Source: Candidatus Levyibacteriota bacterium
GTDB taxonomy: Bacteria > Patescibacteriota > Microgenomatia > Levybacterales > UBA12049
DNA: 64,000 nucleotides
Direction: 5' to 3'
Assembly (NCBI GenBank): GCA_038254115.1
Contig: JBBSGK010000003.1
Span: 9,624-73,623, forward strand
Below the pieces are notes generated by a model that saw only the letters and a program-made list of their open reading frames with translations, was not told where the DNA came from and searched no databases. The position numbers and the translations under genes are program-made. Shown here one piece after another: positions 3,151 to 54,969 of the stretch (within the stretch, counting starts at the first letter, position 1; each line of letters starts with the position of its first letter).

Positions 3151-3240
3151 TTTTTATAGTTAAAATTTCAAAATTAAAAGTTAAAAGTCATAATGTAAGG
3201 TTAAAAAACTTTTCACTTTGCACTTTAGACTTTGAACTTA
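3151..3240. repeat. heptanucleotide tandem repeat arrays in inverted orientation (AAAAGTY units on the left, CTTTGMA x4 at 3207-3236 on the right) in the rplM-rpsI spacer; the right array overlaps the last codons of rplM
   Basis: 7-nt periodicity read directly from the sequence. Confidence 0.7.
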
Positions 3241-3653
3241 TCCTGATATTTATGTTCTTCTCCTGCAAAAACAAAAAGTCTCTTAAGCATCTTATCACGC
3301 AGCTTGTTTTGTGGAAGCATGCCTTTTACAGCGCGACTTACTATCTCCTCAGGTTTGCGTTCCCGTAACTCTTTAAGCGTTTCCTGCCTAAATCCTCCCG
3401 GATATCCTGAATGTCTGTAATAGTTTTTTTGTTCTTCTTTATTACCGGTTACTTTAATTTCCTTCGCATTAACGACCACCACATAATTTCCGCAGTCAAG
3501 ATTCCGGACAAAATAAGGCTCGCCTTTACCCATCAAAAGATGCGCTATCTCGGATGCGACTCGTCCCAATATCTTACCTTTCACATCAACAACGTGCCAG
3601 GACCGCTTGATGTCTGACGCTTTTGTTGCAACTGTAATACTTGCTTGATTCAT
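3225..3653 (-). CDS. rplM: 50S ribosomal protein L13
   Basis: SWHVVDVKGKILGRVAS...YYRHSGYPGG...MLPQNKL typical L13. Confidence 0.95.
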   Translation of the reverse strand: MNQASITVATKASDIKRSWHVVDVKGKILGRVASEIAHLLMGKGEPYFVRNLDCGNYVVVVNAKEIKVTGNKEEQKNYYRHSGYPGGFRQETLKELRERKPEEIVSRAVKGMLPQNKLRDKMLKRLFVFAGEEHKYQDKFKV

Positions 3654-4200: not shown

Positions 4201-4313
4201 AAAAAAAGTCAAAATACTAAAGGCAAAATTCAAAAATACAAGTAAAAATTCAAAACTTTATAGACTTTTTACTTTTGAATTGTGATTTTGACTTTTGAAT
4301 TCTAACTCTTAAC
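4201..4313. repeat. about 110-bp imperfect palindrome built from heptamer units (AAAAGTC/AAAATTC ... then their complements TTTGAAT/TTGACTT) in the rpoA-rplQ spacer
   Basis: left half is the reverse complement of the right half, centred near 4257. Confidence 0.7.
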
Positions 4314-5240
4314 TTAGGCAGACAATGTTACACCTTTTTCTTTAAGTTTTTCCTCAATAACAAAAATGGATTTGCCTCCCATGTTGCGCATACTTACCAA
4401 TTCTTTTCGCGGTACAGCCAAAAGCTGCTCAATTGTCTCGACGCCACCGTTTCTTAGGCTGTTGTAAATTCTTGTAGGAAGATCCAATTCATCAATTGTT
4501 GTTTTGAGGGTGCTTTGAGAAATTGTAGAGGCGGAAGGTAACCCTTCGGCAGCGACAGGCTGAGCCTTTGGTTCGTAAATCTGCGTGAAATGAGATGCCA
4601 AAATCTTTGAAGCTGTGTTCAGCGCATCTACAGGGCTTACTGATCCATTGGTCCAGATCTTAAGAATAAGCTTATCAAGATCAGTACGCCGCCCTACACG
4701 TGTTGCTGCAACTGTGTATGTGACCCGCCTGACCGGTGTGAATACCGCATCAACTGAAATATTACCAAGAGAGGCTGCTTTTCTGTCTTCTGAGAGTGAG
4801 TAGCCAAACCCTTTCTCAATAGTGAGTTCCATTTCCAATTTTGACTTATCTCCTGATAGAGAACCAATGTATTGGTCTTTGTTGACAACCTCAATTCCCT
4901 CTGTCAATTCCAAATCTTTTGCGGTTATTTTTTTGCTTCCTTTAACCGAAAGCTTGATTGTCTCGCTTGTTTTGCTTCCAACAATCCGGAAATTTAGCTC
5001 TTTAATATTAAGAAGAAGATCAATGATATTTTCTTTGAGGCCGGGGAGTGTTGAGAATTTGTGCTTTACATTACTGATCCTAACTGATGTAACAGCAGCT
5101 CCAGGAATGGTTGTGTAGAGAACACGGCGCAAGCTATTACCCATCGTGTGACCGTATCCCGGCTCCAATGGTTCAATAGAAAATTCTCCAAAATCGGCGG
5201 TTGAGCTTATTTCTTTTACTTTAAAAATGTATTCGTCCAT
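4314..5240 (-). CDS. rpoA: DNA-directed RNA polymerase alpha subunit
   Basis: GYGHTMGNSLRRVLYTTIPGAAVTSVRI N-terminal domain and C-terminal alpha-CTD (LDLPTRIYNSLRNGGVETIEQLL). Confidence 0.95.
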   Translation of the reverse strand: MDEYIFKVKEISSTADFGEFSIEPLEPGYGHTMGNSLRRVLYTTIPGAAVTSVRISNVKHKFSTLPGLKENIIDLLLNIKELNFRIVGSKTSETIKLSVKGSKKITAKDLELTEGIEVVNKDQYIGSLSGDKSKLEMELTIEKGFGYSLSEDRKAASLGNISVDAVFTPVRRVTYTVAATRVGRRTDLDKLILKIWTNGSVSPVDALNTASKILASHFTQIYEPKAQPVAAEGLPSASTISQSTLKTTIDELDLPTRIYNSLRNGGVETIEQLLAVPRKELVSMRNMGGKSIFVIEEKLKEKGVTLSA

Positions 5241-5867: not shown

Positions 5868-5913
5868 AATATTATGTGATTTAAGATTTATGATTCAAGA
5901 TTAAAGAATTCTT

Positions 5914-5964
5914 ATTGCCGACAGGCAATTCTTAAATCTTACTTCTTAAATCATTAATCTTCTA
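5914..5964. repeat. hairpin ATTGCC-GACA-GGCAAT followed by five tandem TCTTAAA-type heptamers in the rpsK-rpsD spacer, running into the rpsK stop
   Basis: TCTTAAA TCTTACT TCTTAAA TCATTAA TCTTCTA at 5930-5964. Confidence 0.65.
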
Positions 5965-6411: not shown

Positions 6412-6510
6412 GTCAAGTTTAAAATTCAAAGTTTAAAATGCAAAGTTATTTATTAAAATTTTTTAACTTTCAACAGCAACTTTTAACTTTTCACTTTGAA
6501 CTTTTAACTT
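6412..6510. repeat. inverted heptamer arrays (CAAAGTT-type left, AACTTTT/CACTTTG-type right) in the rpsM-rpsK spacer
   Basis: CAAGTTT AAAATTC AAAGTTT AAAATGC AAAGTTA ... CAACTTT TAACTTT TCACTTT GAACTTT TAACTT. Confidence 0.7.
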
Positions 6511-6916
6511 ATTTCCCCTTAGCCTTTGCCGCTACCTCCATCTTTGCTGCAACTTCTTTCTTTATTGCTCCGATTGTTACTCTCTTTCCTCTTTTGGTTC
6601 TGGCATTTGAGCGTGTTCGCTGTCCGCGTGAGGGTAACCCACGTGTGTGACGGATACCGCGGTAACTTCCTGATTCCTTAAGCCTTCTAATGTCTGCTGC
6701 GACATCCGCTCTCAAATCTCCCTCTATTTTATATTTCTCAAGAATTTTTGTAATTCTTTTTATTTCTTCTTCTGTTAAGTCTTTTGCTTTTTTGGAAGGT
6801 TCTATTTTTGAATCCTTCAAGACAGGCAAAACATTGCTTCTGCCTATGCCATAAATATATGTTAAAGCGATATCGACTCTTTTATTGTCTGGTATTGTAA
6901 CACTTGAAATTCTCAT
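6509..6916 (-). CDS. rpsM: 30S ribosomal protein S13
   Basis: MRISSVTIPDNKRVDIALTYIYGIGRS... typical S13. Confidence 0.95.
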   Translation of the reverse strand: MRISSVTIPDNKRVDIALTYIYGIGRSNVLPVLKDSKIEPSKKAKDLTEEEIKRITKILEKYKIEGDLRADVAADIRRLKESGSYRGIRHTRGLPSRGQRTRSNARTKRGKRVTIGAIKKEVAAKMEVAAKAKGK

Positions 6917-6919
6917 AAA

Positions 6920-7033
6920 TTATCCTTGTCTTTGCTTGTGTCTTGGATTCTCACAAGTAACCCTCACGACACCTGAGCGTTTAATTATTTTACATTTTAT
7001 ACATCTTTTTTTTACACTTGCTTGTACTTTCAT
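6920..7033 (-). CDS. rpmJ: 50S ribosomal protein L36
   Basis: Not in ORF track (below its size cutoff); hand-translated minus strand gives [37 protein letters not shown] with the C-x2-C...C-x4-H zinc ribbon of L36, expected position between infA and rpsM. Confidence 0.85.
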
Positions 7034-7105
7034 ATTATTTAGCACTTAGCCTCTAGCGTTTAGGGTCTAGTACTTTCTAGACGCTAGCCGCTAAACCCTA
7101 GACGC
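7034..7105. repeat. CTAG-rich heptamer array (TAGCACT TAGCCTC TAGCGTT TAGGGTC TAGTACT ...) with internal dyad symmetry in the rpmJ-infA spacer; same family as 29075-29138
   Basis: shares CTAGCGTTTAG, GCTAGCCGCTA, CCCTAGAC with the second copy. Confidence 0.65.
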
Positions 7106-7324
7106 TTATCTATAGCGAAACATTATCCTGCCACGTGTTTGGTCATATGGCGTCATTTCAATTTTTACCCTGTCTCCCGGCAGAATTTTTATAAAATGCA
7201 TCCGCATTTTTCCTGATAAGTGACAAAGTACCAGAGATCCGTCTTCTAGCTTAACGCGAAACAATGTATTTGGCAGTGCTTCGACAACTTCCCCATCTGT
7301 TTCAAAAGACCCTTGATGAGCCAT
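7106..7324 (-). CDS. infA: translation initiation factor IF-1
   Basis: 72 aa, S1-like OB fold sequence [51 protein letters not shown]. Confidence 0.95.
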
Positions 7325-7396
7325 AATTCAATACAAGTCCTAGGTAAACCCTAAGGACCGTTCAGACATTATAGCAAAGCAGGCTCAAAAGCGCAA

Positions 7397-8161
7397 TCAA
7401 CTTGTTAATAAAAGCGGTCCGTTTTTTGTAATTGCAATTGAGCGCTCAAATAGACCTGCCATACTTCCATCTTTTGACCGAATTGTCCAGCCGTCATGAT
7501 CCAAAACCACATCTTTTAATCCCATATTGTAAATCACCTCCACCGCAATAGTCATACCTTCTTCCAGAAGCGGAGTTTTTTCTATTTTTCTATTTAAATA
7601 TCCTGGTACTTCCGGCTCTTCATGAAGCTCCCGTCCGACTCCGTGCCCGATCAAACTTCTTACGACTGAGTAGCCATTCTGTTTTTCGACAATGTCCTGA
7701 ATTGTTTTTGAAATATGCCCAACCCTGTTACCAATTACTGCCTGTTTTATTCCTTCCTCAAGCGCAAGTTTCCCAATCTCTAAAAACTTTTCTTCAGAGC
7801 TTTGAGCTTTGAGCTTTGAACTTTGAACTATTTTAGTTTCGGCCATATCGGTATGAAACCCTTTATAAAAAACGCCGCAGTCGACCCCTACAACATCTCC
7901 TTCTTTAAGTTTATAACTTCTCGGAATTCCGTGCACCACTGCATCGTTTGTGGACATGCAAATTGTGTGATGGTATCCTTTTACTCTTTTAAATCCTGAT
8001 TCCCCGCCTTTTTCTCTTATCAATTTCTCAGCCAAAATGTCTAGTTCTATTTCTGTAACGCCGGGCTTTATTGAGTCCATTACAGCAAATAAAACTTCAG
8101 ACAAAATATGTCCTCCGTGCTTCATTATTTCGATTTCCTGTTGCGACTTAATATCAATCAT
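7397..8161 (-). CDS. map: methionine aminopeptidase type I, carrying an in-frame heptamer-repeat insertion
   Basis: MetAP fold motifs (HGIP, GHGVG, metal ligands D/D/H/E/E); 4x TTTGARC tandem repeat at 7801-7828 encodes loop SSKLKAQSS. Confidence 0.9.
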   Translation of the reverse strand: MIDIKSQQEIEIMKHGGHILSEVLFAVMDSIKPGVTEIELDILAEKLIREKGGESGFKRVKGYHHTICMSTNDAVVHGIPRSYKLKEGDVVGVDCGVFYKGFHTDMAETKIVQSSKLKAQSSEEKFLEIGKLALEEGIKQAVIGNRVGHISKTIQDIVEKQNGYSVVRSLIGHGVGRELHEEPEVPGYLNRKIEKTPLLEEGMTIAVEVIYNMGLKDVVLDHDGWTIRSKDGSMAGLFERSIAITKNGPLLLTS

Positions 8162-23853: not shown

Positions 23854-25980
23854 TTACTCAACTCTTCCCGTAAATGTGGATTTTGCGAGGAGACCCTCGA
23901 CGATGTTTTTGGGGACTGGGTCATAGTGCGATGGCTCCATGTAGTAATGCGCTCTTCCCTGAGTCAAACTCCGAAGCTGTGTCGCATATCCTGAGAATTC
24001 TGCAAGCGGGACCATGGCCATGATAATCGTAGCTTTGTTTTTTTCTTCAGATCCCAAAATTTGCGCGCGCTTTGATGATAAATCTCCGATTACTTCTCCC
24101 ATGTATTCAGAAGGAGTTGTCACTTCAACCTTCATGATTGGTTCCAAAAGTGTAATTCCTGATTTTTTGGTGGCTGCTTGAATTGCTTGTGACGCTGCGA
24201 TTTTAAATGCAATTTCTGAGCTATCAACATCATGGTACGAGCCGTCGTAGCAAGTAACCTGCACATCAATCAACGGATATCCAAGAAGTACTCCATTCTC
24301 AAGTGTTTCTTTAGCTCCTTTTTCGACTGCTTTGACAAATTCGGCAGGAATGGCCCCACCTTTTATAGCATTAACAAACGAATAGCCCTCGCCTCTTGGT
24401 ACAGGTGAAACTCTCAGATAACAATGCCCGTATTGTCCGCGTCCTCCTGATTGCTTGATGTATTTTCCTTCAGCTTCAGCTTCCTGCTCAATTGTTTCTT
24501 TATATGCAACTTGTGGCGCTCCGACATTGGCCTCAACGCCAAACTCACGCTTCATCCTATCAACCATGATCTCAAGCTGCAATTCTCCAATTCCTGAAAT
24601 AATTGTTTGTCCTGTTTCGTGATTTGACTTAACAGAAAATGTCGGGTCTTCCTCAGTCAATCTTTTAATTGAGAACCCGAGTTTCTCCTGATCGGATTTT
24701 GTCTTTGGTTCAATAGCAAGTGAGATAACGGGCTCAGGGAAGGTGATCTGTTCAAGAACAATAGGCTTTGCCTCATCACAAAGAGTGTCTCCGGTTATTG
24801 TCTCTTTAAGACCAACAATCGCGACAATTTCACCGGCATATGCTTCTTTTATCTCCTCGCGGTTATTGGCATGCATCAGAAGAATCCTGCCTACCCGCTC
24901 TTTGACACCCTTTGTACTATTATATATGTATGATCCCGATACAAGCGTTCCCGAATAAACCCGGAAATATGAAAGCTTACCAACATGCGGGTCATTTTGG
25001 ATTTTAAAAGCAAGTCCTGAGAAAGGGGCATCAGGAACAAGTTGGCGGATTTCCTCGTCGCCCGTTTTTGGATTTTTTCCTTTTACTTCTTTCAAATCAA
25101 CAGGTGATGGAAGATAATCAACAACTGCATCCAAAAGAGGCTGGACTCCTTTATTTCTAAGACTTGTTCCTGCATAAATTGGGACGAGTTTATAATCAAT
25201 AACAGCTTGTCTTAATGCTTTTTTGAGCTCCTCGACTGTCGGCTCTTCACCTCCAAGGTATTTCTCCAAAAGCGTGTCATCAGTTTCTGAAATCTTCTCA
25301 ATCAATTTTGAGCGGTACTCCTCGACTTTATCCTTCAAATCCTCTGGTACTTCGTCTTTTACTTCATATTTTGCCCCCAACTCTTCTGAACCCCAAATAT
25401 ATGATTGGCGTGTGAGTAGATCAACATTTCCGACATATGTGTTTTCAGCACCAATCGGGATAACCATGATTGCGCAATTTGCGCCAAGTCTGTCCTCAAT
25501 AGTGCCAACAGTATAGAGAAAATCAGCACCGAGCTTATCCATTTTATTAACGAAACAAATTCTAGGCACTTTATATTTATCGGCTTGACGCCAGACTGTT
25601 TCTGATTGAGACTGGACTCCTTCTTCTGCATCCAAAACCGTAACTCCACCGTCAAGAACACGGAGAGATCTCTCAACTTCTGCTGTAAAATCAACGTGTC
25701 CCGGGGTATCGATAATGTTTATACGGTATGGATCAGTCGGGTTTTGTGAGTGTGTCCAGAAAGCAGTCGTTGCGGCTGACACAATAGTAATTCCGCGCTC
25801 TTTTTCCTGCTCCATCCAGTCCATCTGCGTATTTCCCTCGTCAATATCTCCGATTTTATAGGTTTTGCCGGTATAGAAAAGAATGCGCTCGGTAGTTGTG
25901 GTTTTACCGGCGTCAATATGGGCAATTATTCCGATGTTGCGGATCTTATCTAGTGGTACGTTTCGTGATTGCTCAGCCAT
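23854..25980 (-). CDS. fusA: elongation factor G
   Basis: [25 protein letters not shown]-motifs and EF-G domains II-V; start trimmed to ATG at 25978-25980 (MAEQSRN...); no rpsL/rpsG upstream. Confidence 0.95.
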
Positions 25981-25985
25981 AATAA

Positions 25986-26100
25986 AAAAGTTAAAAGTGC
26001 AAAGTGAAAAGTCCAAAGTTACAATGAAAAATTAAAAAACTCAACTTCAAACCGTAACTTTTAACTTTTAATTTTGAACCTTTAACTACTGAGAGTATAA
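25986..26100. repeat. inverted heptamer arrays (AAAAGTT AAAAGTG CAAAGTG AAAAGTC CAAAGTT ... AACTTTT AACTTTT AATTTTG AACCTTT) in the fusA leader; shares the 19-mer AAAGTGCAAAGTGAAAAGT with the 3193-3211 spacer
   Basis: read directly from the sequence. Confidence 0.7.
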
Positions 26101-27381: not shown

Positions 27382-27693
27382 ATGAAAAAAAATAGAGCTC
27401 AAAAAGACATACTTTATCTTTCAATTTCATCTTTTGTGTTAGTTGTTTTATGGATTGGTTTTAATCTATATCATAACTACGTAACAACCACCATAGCACC
27501 TGATCTGCAACTTGAAATTGCGCCGATTGAGCCATCATTTAATACCGAAATAATCAATAATCTTAAGGCGCGCACGCGAATTGAGCCCCTTTATGAGTAC
27601 AAGAATAATCAAGCCAGCCCAACAGTAAGCCCTGATCCTGCCACTCAAGAAACATCTAAAGCAACTAATTCTGGCGAAAGGCGCGGACAATGA
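27382..27693 (+). CDS. small single-pass membrane protein (possible PilP-like accessory)
   Basis: 103 aa, one TM (LYLSISSFVLVVLWIGF), S/T/P-rich tail. Confidence 0.35.
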   Translation: MKKNRAQKDILYLSISSFVLVVLWIGFNLYHNYVTTTIAPDLQLEIAPIEPSFNTEIINNLKARTRIEPLYEYKNNQASPTVSPDPATQETSKATNSGERRGQ

Positions 27694-29069
27694 CATATAC
27701 ACGAAATACTATCTGGAATAAACGCCTACCAAGAGGACTGGGCTTTGCAGTGTTGCTCTTTGCGCTGGCAACAATTTTTTGGCTAAGCCGCAACGCAGTA
27801 TTGCTTGGGAGTAAGGCAGCAGCGGATAATACTCCCAAAGATCTACAAATAAGCAATATTACAAATAACACTTTTACTGTTTCATACCTTACTGATCAGA
27901 GTATTACCGGAAGCATAGCTTATGGAAATGATCCAAAATTTGGAAAAGTTGCATTTGATACCAGGGATACTACAACTCCTATGCCCCACATTATTCATTA
28001 TGCAACAGTAAAAGGGTTGTCGCCTTCAACCAAATATTTTTTCTCAATTGTTTCCGGCGATGCCTCTTTTTTAAAGAATGGAATTCCCTACGAAATTACG
28101 ACAGCAGCAGTTACTGCTACAGCATCTGCCCAGCAACCGATATCAGGAAAAGCAACCCTTGATGGGGGCAATATCCCAACCGAAGCAGTTGCTTATACAG
28201 AATCAGACAACTCCCAATTACTATCATCCCTTCTTCTACCTGGTGGGAGCTATAAACTTCCCCTTGATACAATACTTAAAAAAGATTTAACCGGAGGTTT
28301 GATTATTACTCCCTCTACAGTACTTCATATAAATATCGTTAATTCAACGCTTAAATCCCGTATTTCTACTCTGGCCTCCCAAACCAATCCAATTCCTCCG
28401 GTAATTCTTTCCAAGGACTATGATTTTAGCATAAGCAATGAACCTCTCTCGTCTCCATCTTCATCTGAGTCTGCTAAGATTTCAGGATTTCCAACGTCAG
28501 GGGACACTTCTCAACCAGTTCCGCAAATTTTAACTCCCCAAACATCACAGGAATTTAAAGATCAACAGCCTCAATTTAGCGGAAAGGCGCTTCCCGGGAA
28601 TGATGTTGAAATCACAATACAATCAAATCAGGAAATAACTACTACTGTTCAGGCAGACAACTCCGGTAATTGGAAGTACCGCCCGGACACAAAGCTTGCC
28701 CCAGGTCAACACACACTCACTATTAAAACCCTAGATGCATCAGGTATCATCAAAACACTTTCCCAATCATTTACAGTATTTGCTGAAGGCAGTCAGTTTG
28801 TTGAACCTTCTATTTCGCCATCGCTACTTCCATCGCCTACCGCAAGTCCAACTGCTGTTCCCACAATAGCCCCAACAAGTTCCCCCTCGGCAATTCCAAC
28901 GCCAATTGTGATCATAACAACTCCAATTGTTTCGACTCCGTCTGCGACTACTATACCCCACATCACAACTCCACCAATTCCAAAAAGCGGAAGCTCAGTC
29001 TTGACTTTTGGTATTATTGGAACTATTCTATCAATCGGGGTTGGGGGATTACTCTTCCTATTGCTCTAA
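27690..29069 (+). CDS. cell-surface protein with FN3-like (purple-acid-phosphatase-N-like) and bacterial Ig-like domains, S/T/P-rich stalk and C-terminal hydrophobic anchor
   Basis: N-terminal signal anchor; ISNITNNTFTVSYLTD...HYATVKGLSPSTKYFFSIV FN3-like; ALPGNDVEITIQ...NSGNWKYRPD...GQHTLTIKT Ig-like; PSPTASPTAVPT stalk; ends GIIGTILSIGVGGLLFLLL. Confidence 0.55.
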   Translation: MTYTRNTIWNKRLPRGLGFAVLLFALATIFWLSRNAVLLGSKAAADNTPKDLQISNITNNTFTVSYLTDQSITGSIAYGNDPKFGKVAFDTRDTTTPMPHIIHYATVKGLSPSTKYFFSIVSGDASFLKNGIPYEITTAAVTATASAQQPISGKATLDGGNIPTEAVAYTESDNSQLLSSLLLPGGSYKLPLDTILKKDLTGGLIITPSTVLHINIVNSTLKSRISTLASQTNPIPPVILSKDYDFSISNEPLSSPSSSESAKISGFPTSGDTSQPVPQILTPQTSQEFKDQQPQFSGKALPGNDVEITIQSNQEITTTVQADNSGNWKYRPDTKLAPGQHTLTIKTLDASGIIKTLSQSFTVFAEGSQFVEPSISPSLLPSPTASPTAVPTIAPTSSPSAIPTPIVIITTPIVSTPSATTIPHITTPPIPKSGSSVLTFGIIGTILSIGVGGLLFLLL

Positions 29070-29074
29070 ACTGG

Positions 29075-29138
29075 CTTCTAGCGTTTAGCGCTTAGCGTTT
29101 AGTTTTCTAGCCGCTAGGCCCTATACCCTAGACCCTAA
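29075..29138. repeat. second copy of the CTAG-rich heptamer element (CTAGCGT TTAGCGC TTAGCGT TTAGTTT TCTAGCC GCTAGGC CCTATAC CCTAGAC CCTAAAA)
   Basis: between the surface-protein gene and the oxidoreductase gene. Confidence 0.65.
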
Positions 29139-29141
29139 AAT

Positions 29142-30425
29142 ATGAAAGTAGCAATTATTGGCGCCGGCTTTACCGGTCTTACAGCAGCGTACCAGCTTAC
29201 TAAAAAAGGCCATGGTGTTACAGTATTTGAAAAAGACTCAAACCCCGGTGGACTGGCAATAGGTTATAAAGAGAGATCATGGAACTGGAGCCTTGAGAAG
29301 CATTACCACCACTGGTTCACGAATGATAAATTTATACTTAATTTGGCTGAGGAGATTGGACACAAAGTCCTTATAAAACGGCCAAAAACATCAGTATATA
29401 CTGAGGGCGAGATTTTTCAGTTTGATTCCCCCAAGGATGTTTTGCTCTTTCCAAAGTTATCCATTTTGGAGCGCTTGAGAATGGCAGCTGTTATAGGCGC
29501 TATGCGCTACAACCTTTTTTGGAAACCTCTTGAGAAAATAAATGCAAGCACTTTCCTTCCCAAAATGATGGGTAAAAATCCATACAAAATGATCTGGGAG
29601 CCACTTTTTGCCAATAAGTTTGGCGAGTACGCAACCGATGTTTCCCTTGCATGGTTTTGGGCCAGGATTACCAAACGCACTCCATCTCTTGCGTATCCTG
29701 AGGGAGGATTTCTGGATTTTGCCAATCACCTCGTATCAGTAATTCAAAAAAACGGAGGCAAAATATTTTTCAATACAGAAGTAACTGAAGTAAATGATAG
29801 CGACACAACATACGTTTCGTATCTATTACAAAACGGAAAAACTAAAACTGAAAATTTTGACGTTATCATATTTACCCTTCCCTCATTCCTTTTTATAAAA
29901 ATTACCAAAAATCTTCCGGATTCATATAAAGATAAACTGGTAAGACTAAAAGGGCTTGGCGCAACAAATCTTGTTTTGAGACTCAAAAAACCTTTCTTTA
30001 AAGACAACACTTACTGGCTAAGCGTTTGCGACAAAACCTCACCAGTCATGGCAGTTGTGGAGCATACCAACATGATGGACAAAAAAAATTACAACAACGA
30101 GCACCTTCTGTATCTCGGCAATTATTTGCCTGCCGATAGCCCGGAATTTCTGATGGGTAAAGAGCAAAAGCTACAATTATTTGATCCGTTCCTTAAAAAA
30201 TTAAATCCGGATTACAAGAAAAGTTTGATTGGATATGAGCTCTTTAAGGCACCCTTTGCCCAACCAATTATCCCGACAAATTATTCAAAAATGGTACCGG
30301 CAATGAAAACACCTCTTAAAAATGTTTTTCTTGCGAATATAGAGCAAGTTTATCCGTGGGATAGGGGTACCAATTATGCGGTTGAGCTGGGAGAAAAAGT
30401 AGCAGAATTAGTTGAGGATGAGTAA
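29142..30425 (+). CDS. FAD-dependent oxidoreductase (amine oxidase / protoporphyrinogen oxidase / UDP-galactopyranose mutase-like Rossmann family)
   Basis: MKVAIIGAGFTGLTAAYQL dinucleotide-binding motif followed by E(x)GG motif (FEKDSNPGGLA). Confidence 0.75.
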   Translation: MKVAIIGAGFTGLTAAYQLTKKGHGVTVFEKDSNPGGLAIGYKERSWNWSLEKHYHHWFTNDKFILNLAEEIGHKVLIKRPKTSVYTEGEIFQFDSPKDVLLFPKLSILERLRMAAVIGAMRYNLFWKPLEKINASTFLPKMMGKNPYKMIWEPLFANKFGEYATDVSLAWFWARITKRTPSLAYPEGGFLDFANHLVSVIQKNGGKIFFNTEVTEVNDSDTTYVSYLLQNGKTKTENFDVIIFTLPSFLFIKITKNLPDSYKDKLVRLKGLGATNLVLRLKKPFFKDNTYWLSVCDKTSPVMAVVEHTNMMDKKNYNNEHLLYLGNYLPADSPEFLMGKEQKLQLFDPFLKKLNPDYKKSLIGYELFKAPFAQPIIPTNYSKMVPAMKTPLKNVFLANIEQVYPWDRGTNYAVELGEKVAELVEDE

Positions 30426-30435
30426 TGTTTGGTAT

Positions 30436-31251
30436 TTAAATACGCTGTGGCCGGAAAAAAATTAACGCAGTTGCTGCCCCAATATGGGGAACGTGTATAC
30501 CGCCGTGCCTCTCAGAAGCCAAAAATGGTCCGTCTGGATCAAGACGGCCGACCGCTGTCCTGTAGCTGCTCGAGGGATCATCCAGAACCGCAGTAAAACT
30601 ATCTGCAGGAAAGAGTCCCCGCCCATCGTTTCTATCAGCGCATTCCATATCTGCTGCTGCCCAAAATGTGGCAGGAAGAAGTACTTTTTTAATTCCTTCT
30701 AAATGTGGCTCAACCTCCTCCTTAGAGTCATCTTCAGTCCTGTTCAGTTGGGTTGTAAGAGATTGCCCAAAACTTCGTTGCAGAAATAGATCGGTCCGAT
30801 GAACAGCGATTATTGTTTCAACCGGTGGACAATAATCTCTTAAATCTGATTCTCCCATTCTAGTAAAGTACGCTAGGTCATCACTCGGAAAATGACCTGG
30901 TTTTTTAGCAATACGCTCGCCGAGGGTTAGCCTGTCGACAAAAAAAAGGTCAAAATGGGGTTCAAGGATTTTCCTCTCATCACGGGTAGGCATTCGGGCC
31001 CGCTTTAGCAGTCTATATATATTGTCGCGAACCTCAAGGGCTGATTCTTTTTCTTTTTCTGAATCTTCATGATCTTGGCCTTCATCCTTAGTCAAATTAC
31101 TTATTGCGAGTCCTACCCTGTGCCTCCACTCTGGTGTTGAACCTTTCATTTTACGCACATCTTGGAGGGTTCTCCGTACTCTCACTGCTGCTTTTTCCAT
31201 CGCTGTTGGAACTGGTAACTCCCTATGCTCAACGGTCATTAAGCAAATCAT
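30436..31251 (-). CDS. hypothetical protein encoded in a GC-rich (about 50%) segment
   Basis: 271-aa ORF; no recognised motifs; GC much higher than neighbouring genes; convergent with the oxidoreductase gene. Confidence 0.45.
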   Translation of the reverse strand: MICLMTVEHRELPVPTAMEKAAVRVRRTLQDVRKMKGSTPEWRHRVGLAISNLTKDEGQDHEDSEKEKESALEVRDNIYRLLKRARMPTRDERKILEPHFDLFFVDRLTLGERIAKKPGHFPSDDLAYFTRMGESDLRDYCPPVETIIAVHRTDLFLQRSFGQSLTTQLNRTEDDSKEEVEPHLEGIKKVLLPATFWAAADMECADRNDGRGLFPADSFTAVLDDPSSSYRTAVGRLDPDGPFLASERHGGIHVPHIGAATALIFFRPQRI

Positions 31252-31304: not shown

Positions 31305-32951
31305 GTGTCTAGTTTGCTGAAAACTCATAAAGCTGCCTTTGGTGTCGCTTTTCTTATATTAATCGGCGCGTTTCTCCGTTGCTATAATTTAAATTGGGGG
31401 GCTCCATTTTATTTCCATCCGGATGAGCGCAATATCGCATCAAGCATTACTCAGCTTGTATTCCCGACTCAGATGAACCCTCATTTTTTTGCATACGGCT
31501 CTTTGCCAATCTACATCATTTATTTTAGCGGTATGGTTACGAATTTTTTTTCTTCGTGTCACTTATCAATTACAAATTGCAAATTGTATAATGTCGAATT
31601 TGGGCACGCAATAATTATCAGCCGTTTTTATTCTGCTTTATTCTCCACCTTACTTATTCCTTTTATTTTTCTACTTGGAAAAAAAATGCACGGTCCCAAA
31701 ACAGGCCTTACAGCAGCTTTCCTTGCAACCTTTAGCGCAGGATTTATTCAGTTTGCCCACTTCGGAACCTTTGAAATGTGGCTTACATTTTTCAGTGTTC
31801 TCCTTTTTTGGTTTTGCCTTGAAGAATTAAATAAAAAAAATATCCATCACCTTTTTATTCTGCCAGCTATTTTTGCAATACTTTTGGCAATCAAAGTATC
31901 GTCCATTGCGCTACTGCCTCTTCCGCTTCTTATGATACTAATAAAAAAGCAAAACTCCTCCAAAAAACTTAAAGAGATAATTTTATTTATTGTTACTTTA
32001 TCGATAGTTTACGCAGTGACCAATCCTTTCGTCTTTTTGACAACACAAGAATTTCTCTCAAGTATAAGATATGAAGGCGGCGTTGTATTGGGCACGCTGG
32101 ACGTTTTCTACACACAATCTTTTTATAACACTATGCCAATAGTTTTCCAATTTCTCAATATTTTCCCATTTCTATTAAATCCTCTTTTTACTATTATATT
32201 CATCCCTGCCTTTTTTTATCTAATCTATAAAGGGATTAAAACAAAAAACCTATTGTTTTTATTTCTTATTTCTTACTTCTTACTTCTTTTCCTCCCCCAA
32301 GCTTTTCTTTTTGCGAAATGGACACGATACATGGTGCCGACATTGCCATTTATCTACCTTATAGTTGCAATAGCATCTATTGATTTTCTCAATATGTTAT
32401 CTAAATCCAAACGAGTATTTAGTATAAAGTATTTCGTATTAAGTATTTTCATATTGTTCACTATTGCATTCGGGATTTCTTATTTCATAACCGCATTTGT
32501 AAAACCTGATACCCGAATCGAAGCAGGCAAATTTACTCAAGCCAAAATCCAGCAAACCAGAAGAGTTTTGACTGAGCCTTATGACTTAGGAATAATCCCT
32601 TTCAATTCCCATCTCCAATATATTAACTCATTCAATTTCTACAATTTGGATCCAGAAAATAATGCTTTAAATGAAGAACTAAAAACAAAAATTTTCCAAT
32701 CTGACTATATTATATTACCAAGCCAAAGGCTTTTAAAATCCCGTTTATTAAATCCAAATAAATTCCGAAAAGGTCATGGAATTTACTCTTTATTAACAAA
32801 AGAGGCGCTTGGCTACCAAAAAATTTATGAAACACCTTGTGATATTTTCTGCAAAATCACTTACCTAAATAGTCCGGTTTTTTCATTTGAGGAGACAGCA
32901 AGTGTATTTGAAAGACCCACTGTTTTTATATTTAAAAAAGTTGCCAAATGA
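31305..32951 (+). CDS. GT-C superfamily membrane glycosyltransferase (ArnT/PMT, GT39/GT83-like)
   Basis: multi-TM; N-terminal NWGAPFYFHPDERNIAS loop paralogous to the next gene; start set at in-frame GTG 31305 because ORF-track start 31104 would overlap the convergent gene. Confidence 0.55.
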   Translation: MSSLLKTHKAAFGVAFLILIGAFLRCYNLNWGAPFYFHPDERNIASSITQLVFPTQMNPHFFAYGSLPIYIIYFSGMVTNFFSSCHLSITNCKLYNVEFGHAIIISRFYSALFSTLLIPFIFLLGKKMHGPKTGLTAAFLATFSAGFIQFAHFGTFEMWLTFFSVLLFWFCLEELNKKNIHHLFILPAIFAILLAIKVSSIALLPLPLLMILIKKQNSSKKLKEIILFIVTLSIVYAVTNPFVFLTTQEFLSSIRYEGGVVLGTLDVFYTQSFYNTMPIVFQFLNIFPFLLNPLFTIIFIPAFFYLIYKGIKTKNLLFLFLISYFLLLFLPQAFLFAKWTRYMVPTLPFIYLIVAIASIDFLNMLSKSKRVFSIKYFVLSIFILFTIAFGISYFITAFVKPDTRIEAGKFTQAKIQQTRRVLTEPYDLGIIPFNSHLQYINSFNFYNLDPENNALNEELKTKIFQSDYIILPSQRLLKSRLLNPNKFRKGHGIYSLLTKEALGYQKIYETPCDIFCKITYLNSPVFSFEETASVFERPTVFIFKKVAK

Positions 32952-38669: not shown

Positions 38670-38996
38670 ATGTTTCAACCTTGGGGAAATTGTGTTCAAG
38701 ATGGAGTTGCAACGCTCCGGTGCCTTCCTGTCATTTTTCATAACGTAGTAAACGGTGCTTTAATATTTGTAGGAGTTGTTGCTCTATTTCTTATAATTTA
38801 TTCCGGTATCAGGCTGATCCTATCAGGCGGTGATCCCAAACAAGTCGAAGCAGCCCGGAAAATTATGAACTACGCAATACTGGGCGCCATACTTGTCCTA
38901 TCTTCTTTTGCAATTTTGTACTTTATCGCCTATGTTACCAACTCTAAAGACTGCATTAGCAATATTGAATCTATCAGCACGGGGGGATGCAAATAA
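38670..38996 (+). CDS. VirB2/TrbC-like T4SS pilin (tentative)
   Basis: 108 aa: leader, then two hydrophobic helices separated by a short polar loop (SGGDPKQVEAARK), the VirB2/TrbC architecture; located immediately upstream of VirB3/VirB4-like genes. Confidence 0.45.
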   Translation: MFQPWGNCVQDGVATLRCLPVIFHNVVNGALIFVGVVALFLIIYSGIRLILSGGDPKQVEAARKIMNYAILGAILVLSSFAILYFIAYVTNSKDCISNIESISTGGCK

Positions 38997-39100
38997 TTAT
39001 CCATAAGTTTTCACAAGCGAGCCTTACCATGTATTCCGTTTGACCTACTTTGTAGGAGTTGCATTGCTATTTTTCACGTTATACACTTTTTGTACTAGCA

Positions 39101-40387: not shown

Positions 40388-40390
40388 GCT

Positions 40391-43245: not shown

Positions 43246-43264
43246 ATTTTGTTACTATTAAAAT

Positions 43265-53466: not shown

Positions 53467-54969
53467 ATGGAACATCTCCTTTTTTACCTTTTAATCCTCT
53501 TTTTACCGACACAACTGGGTCTTCATTTTTGGCCAAACTTTTCATCCGTCTTGGGAATACGGGTTGATTACCTCTCCCCCACTGTTTACGTTACTGATGT
53601 CCTAGTAGGTTTATTGATTATTAGTTGGGTATTTAGAAAGTTAAGTAGCAGATATTCAAGGAACTCAAAACTCAAAACTCCAAAGTCAAAATTACAATTC
53701 AAAATTCAAAATTATTGGCCGATTTTAATGTGGTTATTAGTTATCGGTTATTTGTTATTAGTTGTTCTTTTATCCCGCAGGATAGAAGGCGGGCTGTATA
53801 GTCTACTCAAATTCATAGAAATGTCCTTTGTAGCTTATTACACAGCCAAATTTATAGACTTCACGAAAGCATTCCAAAAAATAATTATTCTTTTGTCTTT
53901 TGGTGTAATCAGTGAATCAGCTATCGCTATTTTTCAATTTATTTTTCAGGGATCAATCGGCGGCCAACTTTATTATTTGGGAGAGCGGAGTTTTACTTCT
54001 TCAACCCCAGGAATCGCAAACGCCTCGCTAAATGGAGAGCTTGTTCTTCGTCCCTACGGCACATTCCCCCATCCAAATGTGCTTGCAGGCTATTTAGTGG
54101 TTACAATGATATTGATCTTGTTTTCACTGAGCTTTCGAAAAGCTAATAAAGAATTAAGAATTAAGAATAGAGAATTAAGGCTTATGAAAAGTATGTCTCC
54201 CGCCGTAATTCGTAATTCGTTATTCATAATTCAAGTAACTGCTCTTGTTCTTGGCACAATAGCGCTGTTTTTAACAATGAGCAGAGTGGCGACACTGATA
54301 TGGATATTAATTGCTACTTACTTCTTTTTTAAATTGTCATTCCGAGCACTTCGACTTCGCTCAGCATTAACTCCGCCGAGAAATCTCGTTAATTCTAAAC
54401 TTGTCAAAAATAGATCCCTCCATGCATTTCATTTAGTCGGGATGACAATAGTTTTATTATTGGCAATTTTTTTCTTTACCCCGCTTGGCTACAGGTTTAC
54501 AAATATTAGAAGCGGTGACGAAGCAATTGTTCAGAGACAAATGTTAATAGATAGCTCAATAAAAATGATAAAAACTAGTCCCCTACTTGGGGTAGGCTTA
54601 GGAAATTTTATTCCTACCCTTGCAAAAATTCAAAAACCACTATCTCTTGGATTATATCTTCAACCTGTACACAATATATTTTTACTTGTAGCAGCAGAGA
54701 CTGGATTAATAGGACTAGGATTTTTCACGTGGTTCTTGTGGAAGACGTATAAAAGAATTAAGAAGCATGCTTCGCTCCCGCTCAGCACAAGCGAATTAAG
54801 AATAAAGGAAAGTTTAGTATTAGGGCTAAGTACTATTCTAGTCCTTGGTCTATTTGATCACTACTGGCTTACTCTTCAGCAGGGACAACTTTTTATTGCC
54901 TTTATTATTGGTCTTTGCTGGACAAATTCCAAACAGAAAGCTTCCACCCCCGTGAGTAGAAAAATTTAG
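53467..54969 (+). CDS. O-antigen ligase-like (Wzy_C/WaaL family) polytopic membrane protein with heptamer-repeat-encoded basic loops
   Basis: about 12 TM; C-terminal Wzy_C-like block RSGDEAIVQRQMLIDSSIKMIKTSPLLGVGLGNF...QPVHNIFLLVAAETGLIGLGFF; start moved from ORF-track 53377 (repeat-encoded) to ATG 53467. Confidence 0.6.
   Translation: MEHLLFYLLILFLPTQLGLHFWPNFSSVLGIRVDYLSPTVYVTDVLVGLLIISWVFRKLSSRYSRNSKLKTPKSKLQFKIQNYWPILMWLLVIGYLLLVVLLSRRIEGGLYSLLKFIEMSFVAYYTAKFIDFTKAFQKIIILLSFGVISESAIAIFQFIFQGSIGGQLYYLGERSFTSSTPGIANASLNGELVLRPYGTFPHPNVLAGYLVVTMILILFSLSFRKANKELRIKNRELRLMKSMSPAVIRNSLFIIQVTALVLGTIALFLTMSRVATLIWILIATYFFFKLSFRALRLRSALTPPRNLVNSKLVKNRSLHAFHLVGMTIVLLLAIFFFTPLGYRFTNIRSGDEAIVQRQMLIDSSIKMIKTSPLLGVGLGNFIPTLAKIQKPLSLGLYLQPVHNIFLLVAAETGLIGLGFFTWFLWKTYKRIKKHASLPLSTSELRIKESLVLGLSTILVLGLFDHYWLTLQQGQLFIAFIIGLCWTNSKQKASTPVSRKI
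53662..53710 (+). repeat. in-frame coding heptamer array AACTCAA x2, AACTCCA, AAGTCAA, AATTACA, ATTCAAA x2 inside the O-antigen-ligase-like gene (encodes NSKLKTPKSKLQFKIQN loop)
   Basis: 7 consecutive heptamers. Confidence 0.7.
54149..54231 (+). repeat. two further in-frame heptamer arrays in the same gene: AAGAATT x4 (54149-54176) and CGTAATT CGTAATT CGTTATT CATAATT (54204-54231)
   Basis: encode KELRIKNRELRL and AVIRNSLFII. Confidence 0.7.

What the first reader, a model, noticed from the sequence alone, without database searches (positions are those of the whole stretch)
7034..7105. A second, CTAG-rich heptamer element present in two copies (7034-7105 and 29075-29138)
Both loci are tandem heptamers of the form TAGNNNN / CTAGCGT / CCTAGAC. 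They share the strings CTAGCGTTTAG, GCTAGCCGCTA and CCCTAGAC, and are internally dyad-symmetric.

One copy sits between infA and rpmJ, which are normally adjacent. The other lies between an unrelated surface-protein gene and an oxidoreductase gene.

In an AT-rich genome, where CTAG is usually rare, this looks like a small dispersed palindromic element (REP/MITE-like) or a protein-binding array.
Basis: seen in the sequence. Interest (0 to 1): 0.55.

Follow-up and report, generated by a model that had tools for sequence, protein, structure and literature searches.

The report
Heptamer-built hairpin repeats between genes
The two CTAG-rich stretches are real copies of one small palindromic repeat whose arms are strings of 7-base units. 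It is one flavour of a much wider habit of this candidate-phylum bacterium (Levybacteria) and its relatives of filling the tiny gaps between genes with such hairpins; what the hairpins do is not known.

Summary
Windows 7041-7107 and 29072-29137 align at 47/58 nt, far beyond shuffles. They hold 9 of the window's 71 CTAG sites. Each folds into a ~28-bp interrupted hairpin of about -27 kcal/mol.

CTAG is not the point. The organism is a Candidatus Levybacteria (CPR) genome in which period-7 tandem arrays cover about 12% of intergenic DNA against 0.7% of coding DNA. Other periods cover about 0.1% of intergenic DNA. The arrays usually come as two reverse-complementary arms.

In most relatives the infA-rpmJ junction is empty (-4 to 15 nt). 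In some lineages it is filled by heptamer hairpins with quite different units.

The CTAG type is a true sequence family. Another Levybacteria genome (L007) has three copies in neighbouring ribosomal-protein spacers, 84-89% identical to the window copy, while the flanking genes are 67-80% identical.

These are dispensable, dispersed, co-transcribed palindromic insertions that also change by 7-nt slippage. They are not intrinsic terminators and match no Rfam family. REP or MITE membership is not established.

The closest precedents are the unexplained intergenic heptamer arrays and inverted pairs of Xanthomonas, Nostoc and Beggiatoaceae. I rate this a new variant of a known, poorly understood kind, of moderate interest.

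The parts
7041..7107 (-). CTAG-type heptamer hairpin, copy A. The family-forward orientation is on the minus strand. The 5' arm is 7077-7105, the loop 7071-7076 and the 3' arm 7041-7070. The infA stop codon (7106-7108) serves as the first TAA heptad.
   Evidence: Sequence. Heptad parse. Family profile: 67.9 bits on the minus strand against 34.5 on the plus. RNA fold -27.5 kcal/mol, z -3.0. As ssDNA, -15.2 on the minus strand against -10.6 on the plus.
29072..29137 (-). CTAG-type heptamer hairpin, copy B. The family-forward orientation is on the minus strand, which is antisense to the flanking plus-strand genes. The arms are 29078-29102 and 29107-29137, with the loop at 29103-29106.
   Evidence: Sequence. 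Profile: 55.1 bits on the minus strand against 30.2 on the plus. RNA fold of the mRNA (plus) strand -27.0, z -3.8; minus strand -29.2. As ssDNA, -15.1 on the minus strand against -9.1 on the plus.
7106..7324 (-). infA (IF-1), the gene upstream of copy A.
   Evidence: ORF. PF01176 on the identical protein in L001.
6920..7033 (-). rpmJ (L36), the gene downstream of copy A. Its start codon lies 14 nt after the foot of the hairpin.
   Evidence: ORF. PF00444 on the identical protein.
27690..29069 (+). Big_13/fn3 surface protein with a C-terminal transmembrane anchor, upstream of copy B.
   Evidence: Pfam. Conserved synteny.
29142..30425 (+). FAD-dependent oxidoreductase (amine oxidase/DAO type), downstream of copy B. 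Its start codon lies 4 nt after the foot of the hairpin.
5873..5959 (-). Heptamer hairpin of another unit (GATTTAA / TTAAATC) filling the rpsK-rpsD spacer.
   Evidence: RNA fold -26.6, z -6.1. The same junction is 3 nt long in L002.
6415..6515 (-). Heptamer hairpin (AAAGTTN / NAACTTT) filling the rpsM-rpsK spacer.
   Evidence: Fold -26.6, z -4.8. The junction is 3 nt long in L002 and carries a different unit in L001.
3156..3241 (-). Heptamer array pair (AAAGTNN / ACTTTNN) in the rplM-rpsI spacer. The predicted fold is weak.
   Evidence: Fold z -0.6.
25979..26087 (-). Heptamer hairpin (AAAGTNN / NNACTTT) immediately upstream of fusA, in a divergent intergenic region. This position is not that of a terminator.
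   Evidence: Fold -32.1, z -5.7.
4261..4314 (.). Heptamer array (GACTTTT) between convergent genes.
53396..53440 (+). Heptamer array (AAATTAA) upstream of the O-antigen-ligase-like gene.
53656..53774 (+). Two heptamer arrays inside the O-antigen-ligase-like CDS. They encode SKLKTPKSKLQFKIQN...; they do not form a hairpin.
   Evidence: Fold z -0.4.
54136..54236 (+). In-frame heptamer hairpin inside the same CDS. It sits in a loop that is absent from many orthologues.
   Evidence: Fold -20.5, z -3.3.

Best explanation
**What it is (shown).** The two loci are copies of one family of imperfect palindromes about 65-70 bp long. Each arm is four or five tandem heptamers.
- The 5' arm reads TAGCGNN / TAGGGNN.
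- The loop is A/T-rich.
- The 3' arm reads TAGACCC / TAAMCGC / TAGARGC.

They belong to a much broader class found in Levybacteria and other Microgenomates. In that class, hairpins whose arms are heptamer arrays of many unrelated sequences occupy the short gaps between stop and start codons, and some loops of membrane-protein genes.

**How it arises (inferred).** The elements are dispensable additions to spacers that are 0-15 nt long in most relatives.
- The CTAG family has spread between spacers and genomes. It is therefore a dispersed, probably non-autonomously mobile or horizontally exchanged, repeat.
- All arrays also grow, shrink and homogenise by 7-nt replication slippage.

**What it does (inferred).**
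- The elements are transcribed inside polycistronic mRNAs.
- There they fold into a long bulged stem-loop that puts the upstream stop codon and the downstream start codon at the foot of the stem.
- I take the hairpin form to be what makes the insertion tolerable in tightly coupled operons.
- Any effect on expression, such as mRNA stability, processing or damping of translational coupling, is probably modest and secondary.

The elements are not transcription terminators.
For: **The copies are related.**
- A against B is far above shuffles.
- A family profile finds exactly these two places in the window.

**The family is dispersed.**
- L007 has copies in three successive spacers: infA-rpmJ, rpsM-rpsK and rpsK-rpsD.
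- Further copies: L001 after rpmJ; L016, L020 and L003 after rpsK; and about 20 metagenome contigs.
- Window copy A is 62/70 identical to L007b and 58/69 to L007a. The surrounding map, infA, rpmJ, rpsM, rpsK, rpsD and rpoA genes are only 67-80% identical at the nucleotide level.

**The element is dispensable and variable.**
- The infA-rpmJ junction overlaps (ATGA) in L001, is 1 nt in L003 and holds 28 nt of other sequence in L002.
- Across about 66 relatives the spacer length is bimodal. Most are -4 to 15 nt; 15 are 42-227 nt, and 9 of those 15 have strong period-7 arms.
- The orthologous B spacer is an overlap in L086, 43 nt without repeats in L084, and holds other hairpins in L082 and L083.

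**The class is general.**
- Period 7 is the only over-represented period: 175 positions against 0-2 in the window, and 868 against 0-74 in 81 loci (L001 plus 80 relatives' loci).
- Arrays cover 11.8% of intergenic DNA against 0.74% of coding DNA.
- The two arms of an element match each other across unit families: self MFE -21.6 against chimeric -11.1, permutation p < 5e-5.

**Slippage.** Perfect runs such as CTAAGAA x6 in L007 and TGATAGC x4 in L079 point to recent slippage.

**Hairpin.** Folds are about -27 kcal/mol with z from -3 to -3.8.

**Not a terminator or a known RNA.**
- No T-tract follows the stem.
- There is no Rfam match.
Against: **Mobility is inferred, not shown.**
- No transposase, RAYT or IS lies in the 64-kb window.
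- The possible target duplication at A, (A)TAA...(A)TAA, is too short and A/T-rich to count.
- No strain-level filled/empty pair was found. L158 is 100% identical to the window.

**No covariation within the family.** An element's own arms pair no better than chimeras of different copies (p = 0.79). There is thus no compensatory evidence that the structure itself is selected.

**An in-situ origin remains possible.** The huge diversity of units (more than 60 among 100 arrays) fits local generation by slippage at least as well as many mobile families.

**Conservation could mean function.** The element is better conserved than the flanking genes, and about 14 of 15 scorable copies share one orientation (a crude count). 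Both facts could equally indicate a sequence-specific function.

**No expression data exist.**
Confidence: 0.6

Rival explanations
1. The elements arise purely in place, with no mobility. Heptamer slippage expands a 7-nt seed at the stop codon. Template switching within the nascent hairpin (quasi-palindrome correction) copies the expansion to the other arm. The resemblance among CTAG copies would then be convergence from similar seeds, for example the rpsK 3' end ...CGT AGG GTT TAG, which already contains TAGGGTTTAG.
For: - Only period 7 is enriched, and more than 60 different units occur among 100 arrays.
- Perfect one-arm expansions are present.
- The upstream stop codon is the first TAG/TAA of the array in A, L007a-c, L001, L003 and L020.
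- The rpsK C-terminal codons read TAGGGTT TAG in L003, L006 and L007c.
- The rpsM-rpsK spacers of the window and L001 carry related but different units, GTTNAAA against GATNAAA, next to a conserved Shine-Dalgarno (ribosome-binding) segment.
- The literature proposes polymerase slippage as the cause of the bacterial heptamer excess (Rehm 2015, PMC4692102, citing Mrazek 2007).
Against: - There is 84-89% identity over about 70 nt, variable positions included, between copies at different junctions and in genomes whose ribosomal-protein genes are only 67-80% identical.
- Copy B, behind an unrelated gene whose 3' end offers no TAGGG seed, has the same arms.
- The spacer-length distribution is bimodal rather than graded.
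Confidence: 0.2
2. The hairpin is a functional cis-acting RNA element kept by selection. It could be an RNase III or other processing site, a 3'-5' exonuclease block that sets the relative stability of cistrons (as REP does in E. coli), or an attenuator of translational coupling.
For: - It sits exactly between the stop and start codons of co-transcribed genes.
- The stem is stable, about -27 kcal/mol.
- It is better conserved than the neighbouring genes.
- Orientation is biased with respect to flanking genes, about 14:1 where scorable.
- Heptamer arrays next to start codons altered reporter expression in Nostoc (bioRxiv 10.1101/2022.06.06.494920). A translational role was proposed for the Beggiatoaceae arrays (PMC4679880).
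Against: - It is absent from the same junction in the closest relatives L001-L003 and in most of the other relatives.
- There is no compensatory covariation.
- Copy B is inverted relative to its mRNA.
- Other junctions use unrelated sequences, or nothing at all.
Confidence: 0.12
3. The element is an intrinsic (Rho-independent) transcription terminator or attenuator.
For: A strong stem-loop lies downstream of a stop codon. One array (4261-4314) lies between convergent genes.
Against: - No T-run follows either stem.
- A lies inside the conserved infA-rpmJ-rpsM-rpsK-rpsD-rpoA operon.
- Hairpins of the same class sit upstream of fusA in a divergent region and inside coding sequences.
- The stems are long, bulged and only moderately G+C-rich.
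Confidence: 0.03
4. The element is a double-stranded DNA array of binding sites for a regulator or nucleoid protein. TAG would be read every 7 bp, and three units span two helical turns.
For: TAG/TAA is invariant at 7-bp spacing in both arms. The sequence is conserved across genomes. An unidentified binding partner was postulated for the Nostoc heptamer repeats.
Against: - Other arrays of the class share no motif.
- No regulator gene is associated in the window.
- The positions are between cistrons rather than at promoters.
- No promoter-like signal exceeds chance.
Confidence: 0.05

Closest known systems
Xanthomonas GGGAATC heptamer repeats, including 70-75 convergent (inverted) pairs per genome (Rehm et al. 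2015, PMC4692102)
   Same: - Intergenic tandem heptamers with conserved and variable positions within the unit.
- Frequently paired as inverted repeats that can form stem-loops.
- Mostly transcribed.
- Length and sequence differ between close relatives at the same junction.
   Different: - One G-rich unit dominates there, and G-quadruplex formation was shown in vitro.
- Here dozens of mostly A/T-rich units occur. The CTAG type has too few GGG runs for a G4.
- Here the elements fill stop-to-start gaps inside operons of a genome of about 1 Mb (size taken from the closest complete relative, L002).
Cyanobacterial heptamer repeats: STRR of Calothrix and Nostoc; the GGGGAYT and TTTTGAA/TTCAAAA arrays of Nostoc PCC 7120
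   Same: - Over-representation of period 7 in intergenic DNA.
- Arrays close to or overlapping start codons.
- Function unresolved.
   Different: - Few inverted pairs are reported in Nostoc.
- The organisms have large genomes.
- No link to the CTAG-type sequence.
TAACTGA direct repeats of marine Beggiatoaceae, some Cyanobacteria and Bacteroidetes (MacGregor 2015, PMC4679880)
   Same: - Heptamer arrays that end a few nucleotides upstream of start codons.
- Occasional in-ORF copies read through in frame.
- Patchy phylogenetic distribution suggesting transfer.
   Different: - There it is essentially one unit, as direct repeats; only one inverted case was found.
- Here inverted pairs are the rule and the units are many.
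REP/BIME elements and their RAYT transposases (from my own knowledge; reviewed by Delihas, PMC3184786, listed but not read)
   Same: - Small extragenic imperfect palindromes.
- Co-transcribed.
- Dispersed.
- Strand-asymmetric hairpins.
   Different: - REPs are 20-40 nt, carry a conserved GTAG/GGAG head, occur in hundreds of copies and go with a RAYT gene.
- The element here is about 70 nt, is built of heptads and has no GTAG head.
- Only 2 copies occur in 64 kb, and no RAYT gene is seen.
Bacterial MITEs (Correia/NEMIS, RUP, ERIC, Nezha) and Rickettsia palindromic elements (my own knowledge)
   Same: - Non-coding palindromic insertions with presence/absence among relatives.
- Co-transcribed hairpins.
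- Rickettsia palindromic elements also insert in frame into genes, as the 54136-54236 hairpin appears to do.
   Different: - Those elements have defined terminal inverted repeats, target-site duplications and, often, a parent IS.
- None of these could be shown here.
- They lack internal heptad periodicity.

Membership tests
Intergenic heptamer SSR arrays / inverted heptamer pairs (STRR-like, Xanthomonas-like) | Unit of 7 nt repeated in tandem at least 3 times | tested here: met
   TRF reports period 7 at 7077-7106, 29079-29102 and 29114-29137. The heptad parse shows 4-5 units per arm.
Intergenic heptamer SSR arrays / inverted heptamer pairs (STRR-like, Xanthomonas-like) | Period 7 specifically over-represented in the genome and enriched in intergenic DNA | tested here: met
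   175 positions for period 7 against 0-2 for periods 5, 6, 8, 9 and 10. 11.8% of intergenic DNA against 0.74% of coding DNA. 868 against 0-74 across 81 loci (L001 plus 80 relatives' loci).
Intergenic heptamer SSR arrays / inverted heptamer pairs (STRR-like, Xanthomonas-like) | Two arrays in convergent orientation able to form a stem-loop | tested here: met
   Inverted repeats. Folds with z from -3 to -6. Own arms against chimeric arms, p < 5e-5.
Intergenic heptamer SSR arrays / inverted heptamer pairs (STRR-like, Xanthomonas-like) | Length and sequence vary between relatives at the same junction | tested here: met
REP (repetitive extragenic palindrome) / RAYT system | Imperfect palindrome of 20-40 nt with a conserved 5' GTAG/GGAG head | tested here: not met
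   The element is about 65-70 nt. Its ends read TAAGCGTC... and ...GCTAARYGC, with no GTAG head.
REP (repetitive extragenic palindrome) / RAYT system | A RAYT (Y1 HUH transposase) gene in the genome | tested here: inconclusive
   Of about 70 window ORFs, 40 were scanned against Pfam and none matched a transposase family; the remaining ORFs were not scanned. The rest of the genome cannot be reached with these tools.
REP (repetitive extragenic palindrome) / RAYT system | High copy number, often clustered in alternating orientation | tested here: inconclusive
   Two copies in 64 kb, in the same orientation. Three copies within 1.2 kb in L007, all in the same orientation. The genome-wide count is unknown.
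MITE | Several dispersed copies of high mutual identity | tested here: met
   76% identity between A and B. 84-89% between A and the L007 copies, above the 67-80% of flanking genes.
MITE | Target-site duplication flanking the insertion | tested here: inconclusive
   At A, AGATAA|element...AAATAA|TATG compares with the empty site TATAAATAAT ATG in L003. The 3-4 nt A/T repeat is not distinguishable from chance. Nothing recognisable is seen at B or the L007 copies.
MITE | Terminal inverted repeats shared with an autonomous IS | not testable with these tools
   The whole element is a palindrome. No IS lies in the window, and the whole genome is not available.
Intrinsic terminator | G+C-rich stem followed directly by a U/T tract | tested here: not met
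   No T-tract after either stem. The scans find nothing at the full hairpins.
Any curated RNA family (Rfam 15) | Score at or above the gathering threshold | tested here: not met
   No hit at gathering threshold in the window. Only chance-level hits at E 0.2-0.7.

The most novel reading that the evidence does not exclude
The heptamer-arm hairpins of Microgenomates may be a lineage-wide mobile or maintained system that acts on single-stranded DNA hairpins. A host- or element-encoded enzyme, of the HUH/RAYT type or something new, would read a 7-nt register.

**Leads in its favour.**
- Both window copies have their better-folding strand on the lagging-strand template. This holds even for copy B, which is antisense to its genes. 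Orientation would then follow replication, not transcription.
- The same process inserts in-frame hairpins into loops of surface-glycosylation genes.

**Consequence if true.** The 35-year-old puzzle of why bacteria over-use heptamer repeats would have a mechanistic answer in a genome of about 1 Mb.
Probability: 0.1. Interest if true: 0.75.

Novelty: new variant of a known kind. Interest (0 to 1): 0.45.

Why it matters
**An old, unexplained pattern.** Intergenic heptamer repeats have been noted since 1990 in cyanobacteria, and later in Xanthomonas and Beggiatoaceae. No accepted origin or function has emerged.

**What this case adds.** The same phenomenon appears here in a compact form, in an ultra-small CPR genome.
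- Hairpins built from heptamer arms make up about an eighth of the scarce intergenic DNA.
- They sit between translationally coupled ribosomal-protein genes.
- They come and go between close relatives.
- At least one sequence family among them is better conserved than the genes around it.

**Why that helps.** The clean filled/empty junctions in a universally conserved operon give a good comparative system. They can be used to separate slippage from mobility and selfish spread from RNA function.

**A practical point.** These repeats can be mistaken for regulatory motifs. If assemblers stumble on them they could also break metagenome assemblies, though this was not examined here.

Tried and rejected
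- **Chance resemblance: rejected.**
- **Arrays as pads of stop codons in all three frames: rejected as a general rule.**
  - This holds for A and B.
  - Across 100 arrays, 59 units contain a stop triplet against 60.3 +/- 3.8 in composition-matched shuffles.
- **Compensatory covariation within the CTAG family: not found.** Own-arm against chimeric-arm folding gives p = 0.79.
- **Intrinsic terminator: rejected.** No T-tract follows the stems.
- **Known RNA family or tRNA-derived element: none.**
- **G-quadruplex, as in Xanthomonas: unlikely.** Read directly from the sequence, A has a single GGG run per strand and B has three.
- **Phage origin: not supported.** The one viral-contig match is a chance hit with no heptads.
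- **Metagenome pattern scan: mostly off target.** About 45 of 70 hits belong to an unrelated dispersed repeat (WNFR01 / Ga0137359 contigs) that happens to contain the core. They were discarded.
- **Strain-level variation: no data.** The only contig with the identical S13 protein is 100% identical to the window.
- **Orientation against local GC skew across family members: inconclusive.** Half of the copies score nearly equally on both strands.
- **Transposase or RAYT in the window: none found among the 40 ORFs scanned.**
Full report
**1. The observation**

Both loci exist as described.

Copy A fills the 72-nt gap between infA (7106-7324, minus strand) and rpmJ (6920-7033, minus strand). Copy B fills the 72-nt gap between a Big_13/fn3 surface protein (27690-29069, plus strand) and an FAD oxidoreductase (29142-30425, plus strand).

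Read in heptads:
- A, minus strand: TAA GCGTC TAGGGTT TAGCGGC TAGCGTC TAG-AAAGTAC-TAGACCC TAAACGC TAGAGGC TAAGTGC TAAATAAT ATG.
- B, plus strand: TAA ACTGGCTTC TAGCGTT TAGCGCT TAGCGTT TAG-TTTTC-TAGCCGC TAGGCCC TATACCC TAGACCC TAAAAT ATG.

Tests of the observation:
- TRF finds period 7 in both.
- A and B align at 47/58 nt, score 59. Dinucleotide shuffles give 18 +/- 3, and 0 of 1000 reach the observed score. Nothing else in the window scores above 27.
- The strings CTAGCGTTTAG and CCCTAGAC are unique to the two loci.
- Nine of the window's 71 CTAG sites lie in these 136 nt.
- Both fold into long interrupted hairpins. As RNA, A (minus) gives -27.5 kcal/mol, z -3.0, and B (plus) gives -27.0, z -3.8.

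**2. The wider context changes the reading**

*Period 7 stands alone.* Period-7 self-similarity is the only periodic signal in the window. With a threshold of at least 16 of 21 matches, period 7 gives 175 positions against 0-2 for periods 5, 6, 8, 9 and 10.

*The arrays are intergenic.* At a slightly lower threshold, 22 arrays cover 11.8% of the 4.3 kb of intergenic DNA but 0.74% of coding DNA. Other periods cover about 0.1% of intergenic DNA.

*Most arrays come in reverse-complementary pairs.*
- rpsK-rpsD spacer: GATTTAA / TTAAATC, fold -26.6, z -6.1.
- rpsM-rpsK spacer: AAAGTTN / NAACTTT, fold -26.6, z -4.8.
- Upstream of fusA: fold -32.1, z -5.7.

The finding is therefore the CTAG-flavoured case of a general architecture: stop codon, heptamer array, short loop, complementary array, a few A/T, then ATG.

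**3. Organism and relatives**

The S13 protein places the window in Candidatus Levybacteria (Microgenomates, CPR). The best match is OY970292.1 at 95%. The window also carries dnaA and dnaN (48.6-51.3 kb) and the cumulative GC-skew minimum, so the replication origin lies to the right of both copies.

In L001 plus the 80 relatives' ribosomal-protein loci, period 7 again stands alone: 868 positions against 0, 30, 74 and 53 for periods 5, 6, 8 and 9. The signal is patchy across Levy-, Davies- and Gottesmanbacteria.

**4. The elements are dispensable and variable**

*The infA-rpmJ junction.*
- It is an ATGA overlap in L001, which has an identical IF-1 protein.
- It is 1 nt in L003 and 28 nt of unrelated sequence in L002.
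- Over about 66 relatives the spacer length is bimodal. Most are -4 to 15 nt.
- Fifteen spacers are 42-227 nt. Nine of these have strong period-7 arms, each lineage with its own unit: AACCATT, AATATAA, TAAATAG, GAGATGA, GTCATCA/TGATAGC and others.

*The B junction.*
- It is an overlap in L086 and 43 nt without repeats in L084.
- It carries other hairpins in L082 and L083.
- The gene order is conserved throughout.

*Neighbouring junctions.* The rpsM-rpsK and rpsK-rpsD junctions are 3 nt in L002 but 109 and 94 nt in the window.

*Arm matching across unit families.* Each element's arms match each other far better than arms of other elements: mean MFE -21.6 against -11.1, permutation p < 5e-5.

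**5. The CTAG type is a genuine sequence family**

L007 (JACDET010000006.1, S13 76% identical) has copies in three successive spacers. Window copy A is 62/70 identical to L007b and 58/69 to L007a, but 52/68 to window copy B. Between the same two genomes the map, infA, rpmJ, rpsM, rpsK, rpsD and rpoA genes are 67-80% identical in nucleotides.

Further copies:
- L001 has one after rpmJ rather than before it, with a duplication of about 100 nt of flanking gene ends.
- L016, L020 and L003 have copies after rpsK.
- About 20 of the 70 metagenome matches to the core TAGCGTCTAG-N(4-14)-CTAGACCC are true heptad hairpins. Two of them end ...CTAGACCCTAATAAA(A/G)ATG, much like B.

A profile built from eight copies finds only A and B in the window, both best on the minus strand: 67.9 against 34.5 bits and 55.1 against 30.2 bits. 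An element better conserved than ribosomal-protein genes, yet missing from the same junction in closer relatives, is most simply explained by spread between sites or genomes.

**6. What argues for caution**

- The 40 window ORFs scanned against Pfam include no transposase.
- The (A)TAA...(A)TAA flanks of A are too short to call a target duplication.
- Within the family, own arms pair no better than chimeras (p = 0.79). The stem comes from the family consensus, not from compensatory change.
- Perfect one-arm runs (CTAAGAA x6 in L007, TGATAGC x4 in L079) show that slippage is active.
- The rpsK 3' end (...CGT AGG GTT TAG) already contains the TAGGGTT TAG seed. An origin in place is therefore conceivable for some copies.
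- Units are extremely diverse, with more than 60 among 100 arrays. Their stop-codon content is exactly what composition predicts (59 against 60.3 +/- 3.8). The attractive idea of an all-frame stop pad therefore fails as a general rule.

**7. Function**

*What the elements are not.*
- Neither stem is followed by a T-tract. A lies inside an essential operon, and hairpins of the same class lie upstream of fusA and inside genes. These are not intrinsic terminators.
- There is no Rfam match.

*Geometry.* In both copies the stop codon is at the foot of the stem, and the start codon lies 4 nt (B) or 14 nt (A) beyond it.

*My inference.* Hairpin-forming insertions are the ones tolerated between translationally coupled genes, because folding restores the proximity of stop and start codons. 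Any effect on stability or coupling would be secondary. This is inferred, not shown.

*Orientation.* About 14 of 15 scorable family copies are forward with respect to their flanking genes; this count is crude. Copy B is the exception.

*A possible replication link.*
- As single-stranded DNA the minus strand folds better in both copies: A -15.2 against -10.6, B -15.1 against -9.1.
- With the origin to the right, the minus strand is the lagging-strand template for both copies.
- This hints that orientation follows replication, as it does for REP/IS200-type elements.
- It rests on one discriminating case, and a skew survey was inconclusive.

**8. Comparison with what is known**

The closest precedents are the intergenic heptamer arrays that remain unexplained:
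- Xanthomonas GGGAATC repeats, with 70-75 inverted pairs per genome, mostly transcribed and varying between close species (PMC4692102).
- Calothrix and Nostoc heptamers, including arrays at start codons with reporter effects (bioRxiv 10.1101/2022.06.06.494920).
- TAACTGA arrays of Beggiatoaceae, which end just upstream of start codons (PMC4679880).

All defining features of that kind were met here. REP membership fails on the missing GTAG head and on size. MITE membership is unproven.

Three full-text searches using Candidate Phyla Radiation, Patescibacteria, Microgenomates and Levybacteria as terms returned no report of such elements in CPR bacteria. A further heptamer-repeat search also listed none. 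I therefore rate it a new variant of a known, poorly understood kind.

**9. Verdict**

The element is a dispersed palindromic repeat, but it is not specifically a CTAG element, and it is not shown to be a REP, a MITE or a protein-binding array.
- Interest is moderate. It lies in the class as a whole rather than in the two CTAG copies.

Noticed in passing
window 54136-54236 (inside the O-antigen-ligase-like CDS 53467-54969, plus strand): An in-frame heptamer hairpin, (GAATTAA)n / (CGTAATT)n, with RNA fold -20.5 and z -3.3. It encodes KELRIKNRELR...VIRNSLFIIQ in a loop that is present in some orthologues (P0122, P0124) and absent, as a 17-24 aa gap, in many others. It looks like an insertion into a gene, as with Rickettsia palindromic elements.
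   Followed up: partly
window 53656-53716: A (TCAAAAN)n array inside the same gene encodes SKLKTPKSKLQFKIQN. Many orthologues carry SKIKNQKSKLQFKIQNH, which is what (AAAATCA)n gives when read through all three frames. The in-gene array is therefore widespread at this loop.
   Followed up: partly
window 31555-31601, 32250-32293, 32413-32448, 34130-34171 (two PMT_2-like glycosyltransferase genes) and 7790-7835 (map): More heptamer arrays lie inside coding sequence, mostly in surface-glycosylation membrane proteins. The map array sits in a loop with indels among relatives. A gain or loss of one 7-nt unit would shift the reading frame, so these could act as contingency (phase-variable) loci. The units are imperfect.
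   Followed up: partly
L001 475-770: In a relative with an identical IF-1 protein, the CTAG element lies after rpmJ. It is followed by a diverged duplicate of about 100 nt containing the rpsM start and the rpmJ 3' end. This could be a rearrangement linked to the element or a chimeric metagenome assembly.
   Followed up: partly
window 48639-51263 and about 44-52 kb: dnaN and dnaA (minus strand), followed by yidC and a KhpB/Jag-like KH-R3H gene (plus strand), coincide with the cumulative GC-skew minimum. The replication origin is probably in the window. About 22 kb of plus-strand genes (26-48 kb) would then be transcribed head-on to replication.
   Followed up: partly
window 30436-31251 (minus strand): A 271-aa ORF with no Pfam match lies between the oxidoreductase and the PMT_2 genes. 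Relatives have nothing or a different small gene at this spot (L084, L083, L082), so this is a variable slot.
   Followed up: no
window 7325-7396: A TATAAT-like box is followed by a small hairpin (GTCCTTAGGG...CCTAGGAC) just upstream of infA. It is conserved in L001 and is a likely promoter or leader for infA. It is not a heptamer element.
   Followed up: no
window 38670-45088: A cluster resembling a type IV secretion system: T4SS pilin, a PrgI-like protein and a TraG/VirB4-like ATPase. It is followed by an M23 peptidase gene at 46311-47591.
   Followed up: no
window 7059-7065 and 29133-29139; also L003 and L006: The CTAG-type arms contain TTTAGGG / CCCTAAA, the plant-type telomere heptamer. 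L006 has runs such as GGTTAGGGTTTAGG. This is probably coincidence, but such contigs could be mistaken for eukaryotic contamination.
   Followed up: no
L088, L090, L093-L096 and about 40 other WNFR01 / Ga0137359 contigs: An unrelated dispersed repeat of more than 100 nt and high copy number (...CCTTGTTGGCACGAGCCCAAGG...TAGCGTCTAGTTGGCACGAGCCCTAGACCC...GTGACTTGTGCAAATCGTCTAAGTCAGACG) matched the search core by chance. It occurs in soil metagenomes and was not identified.
   Followed up: no
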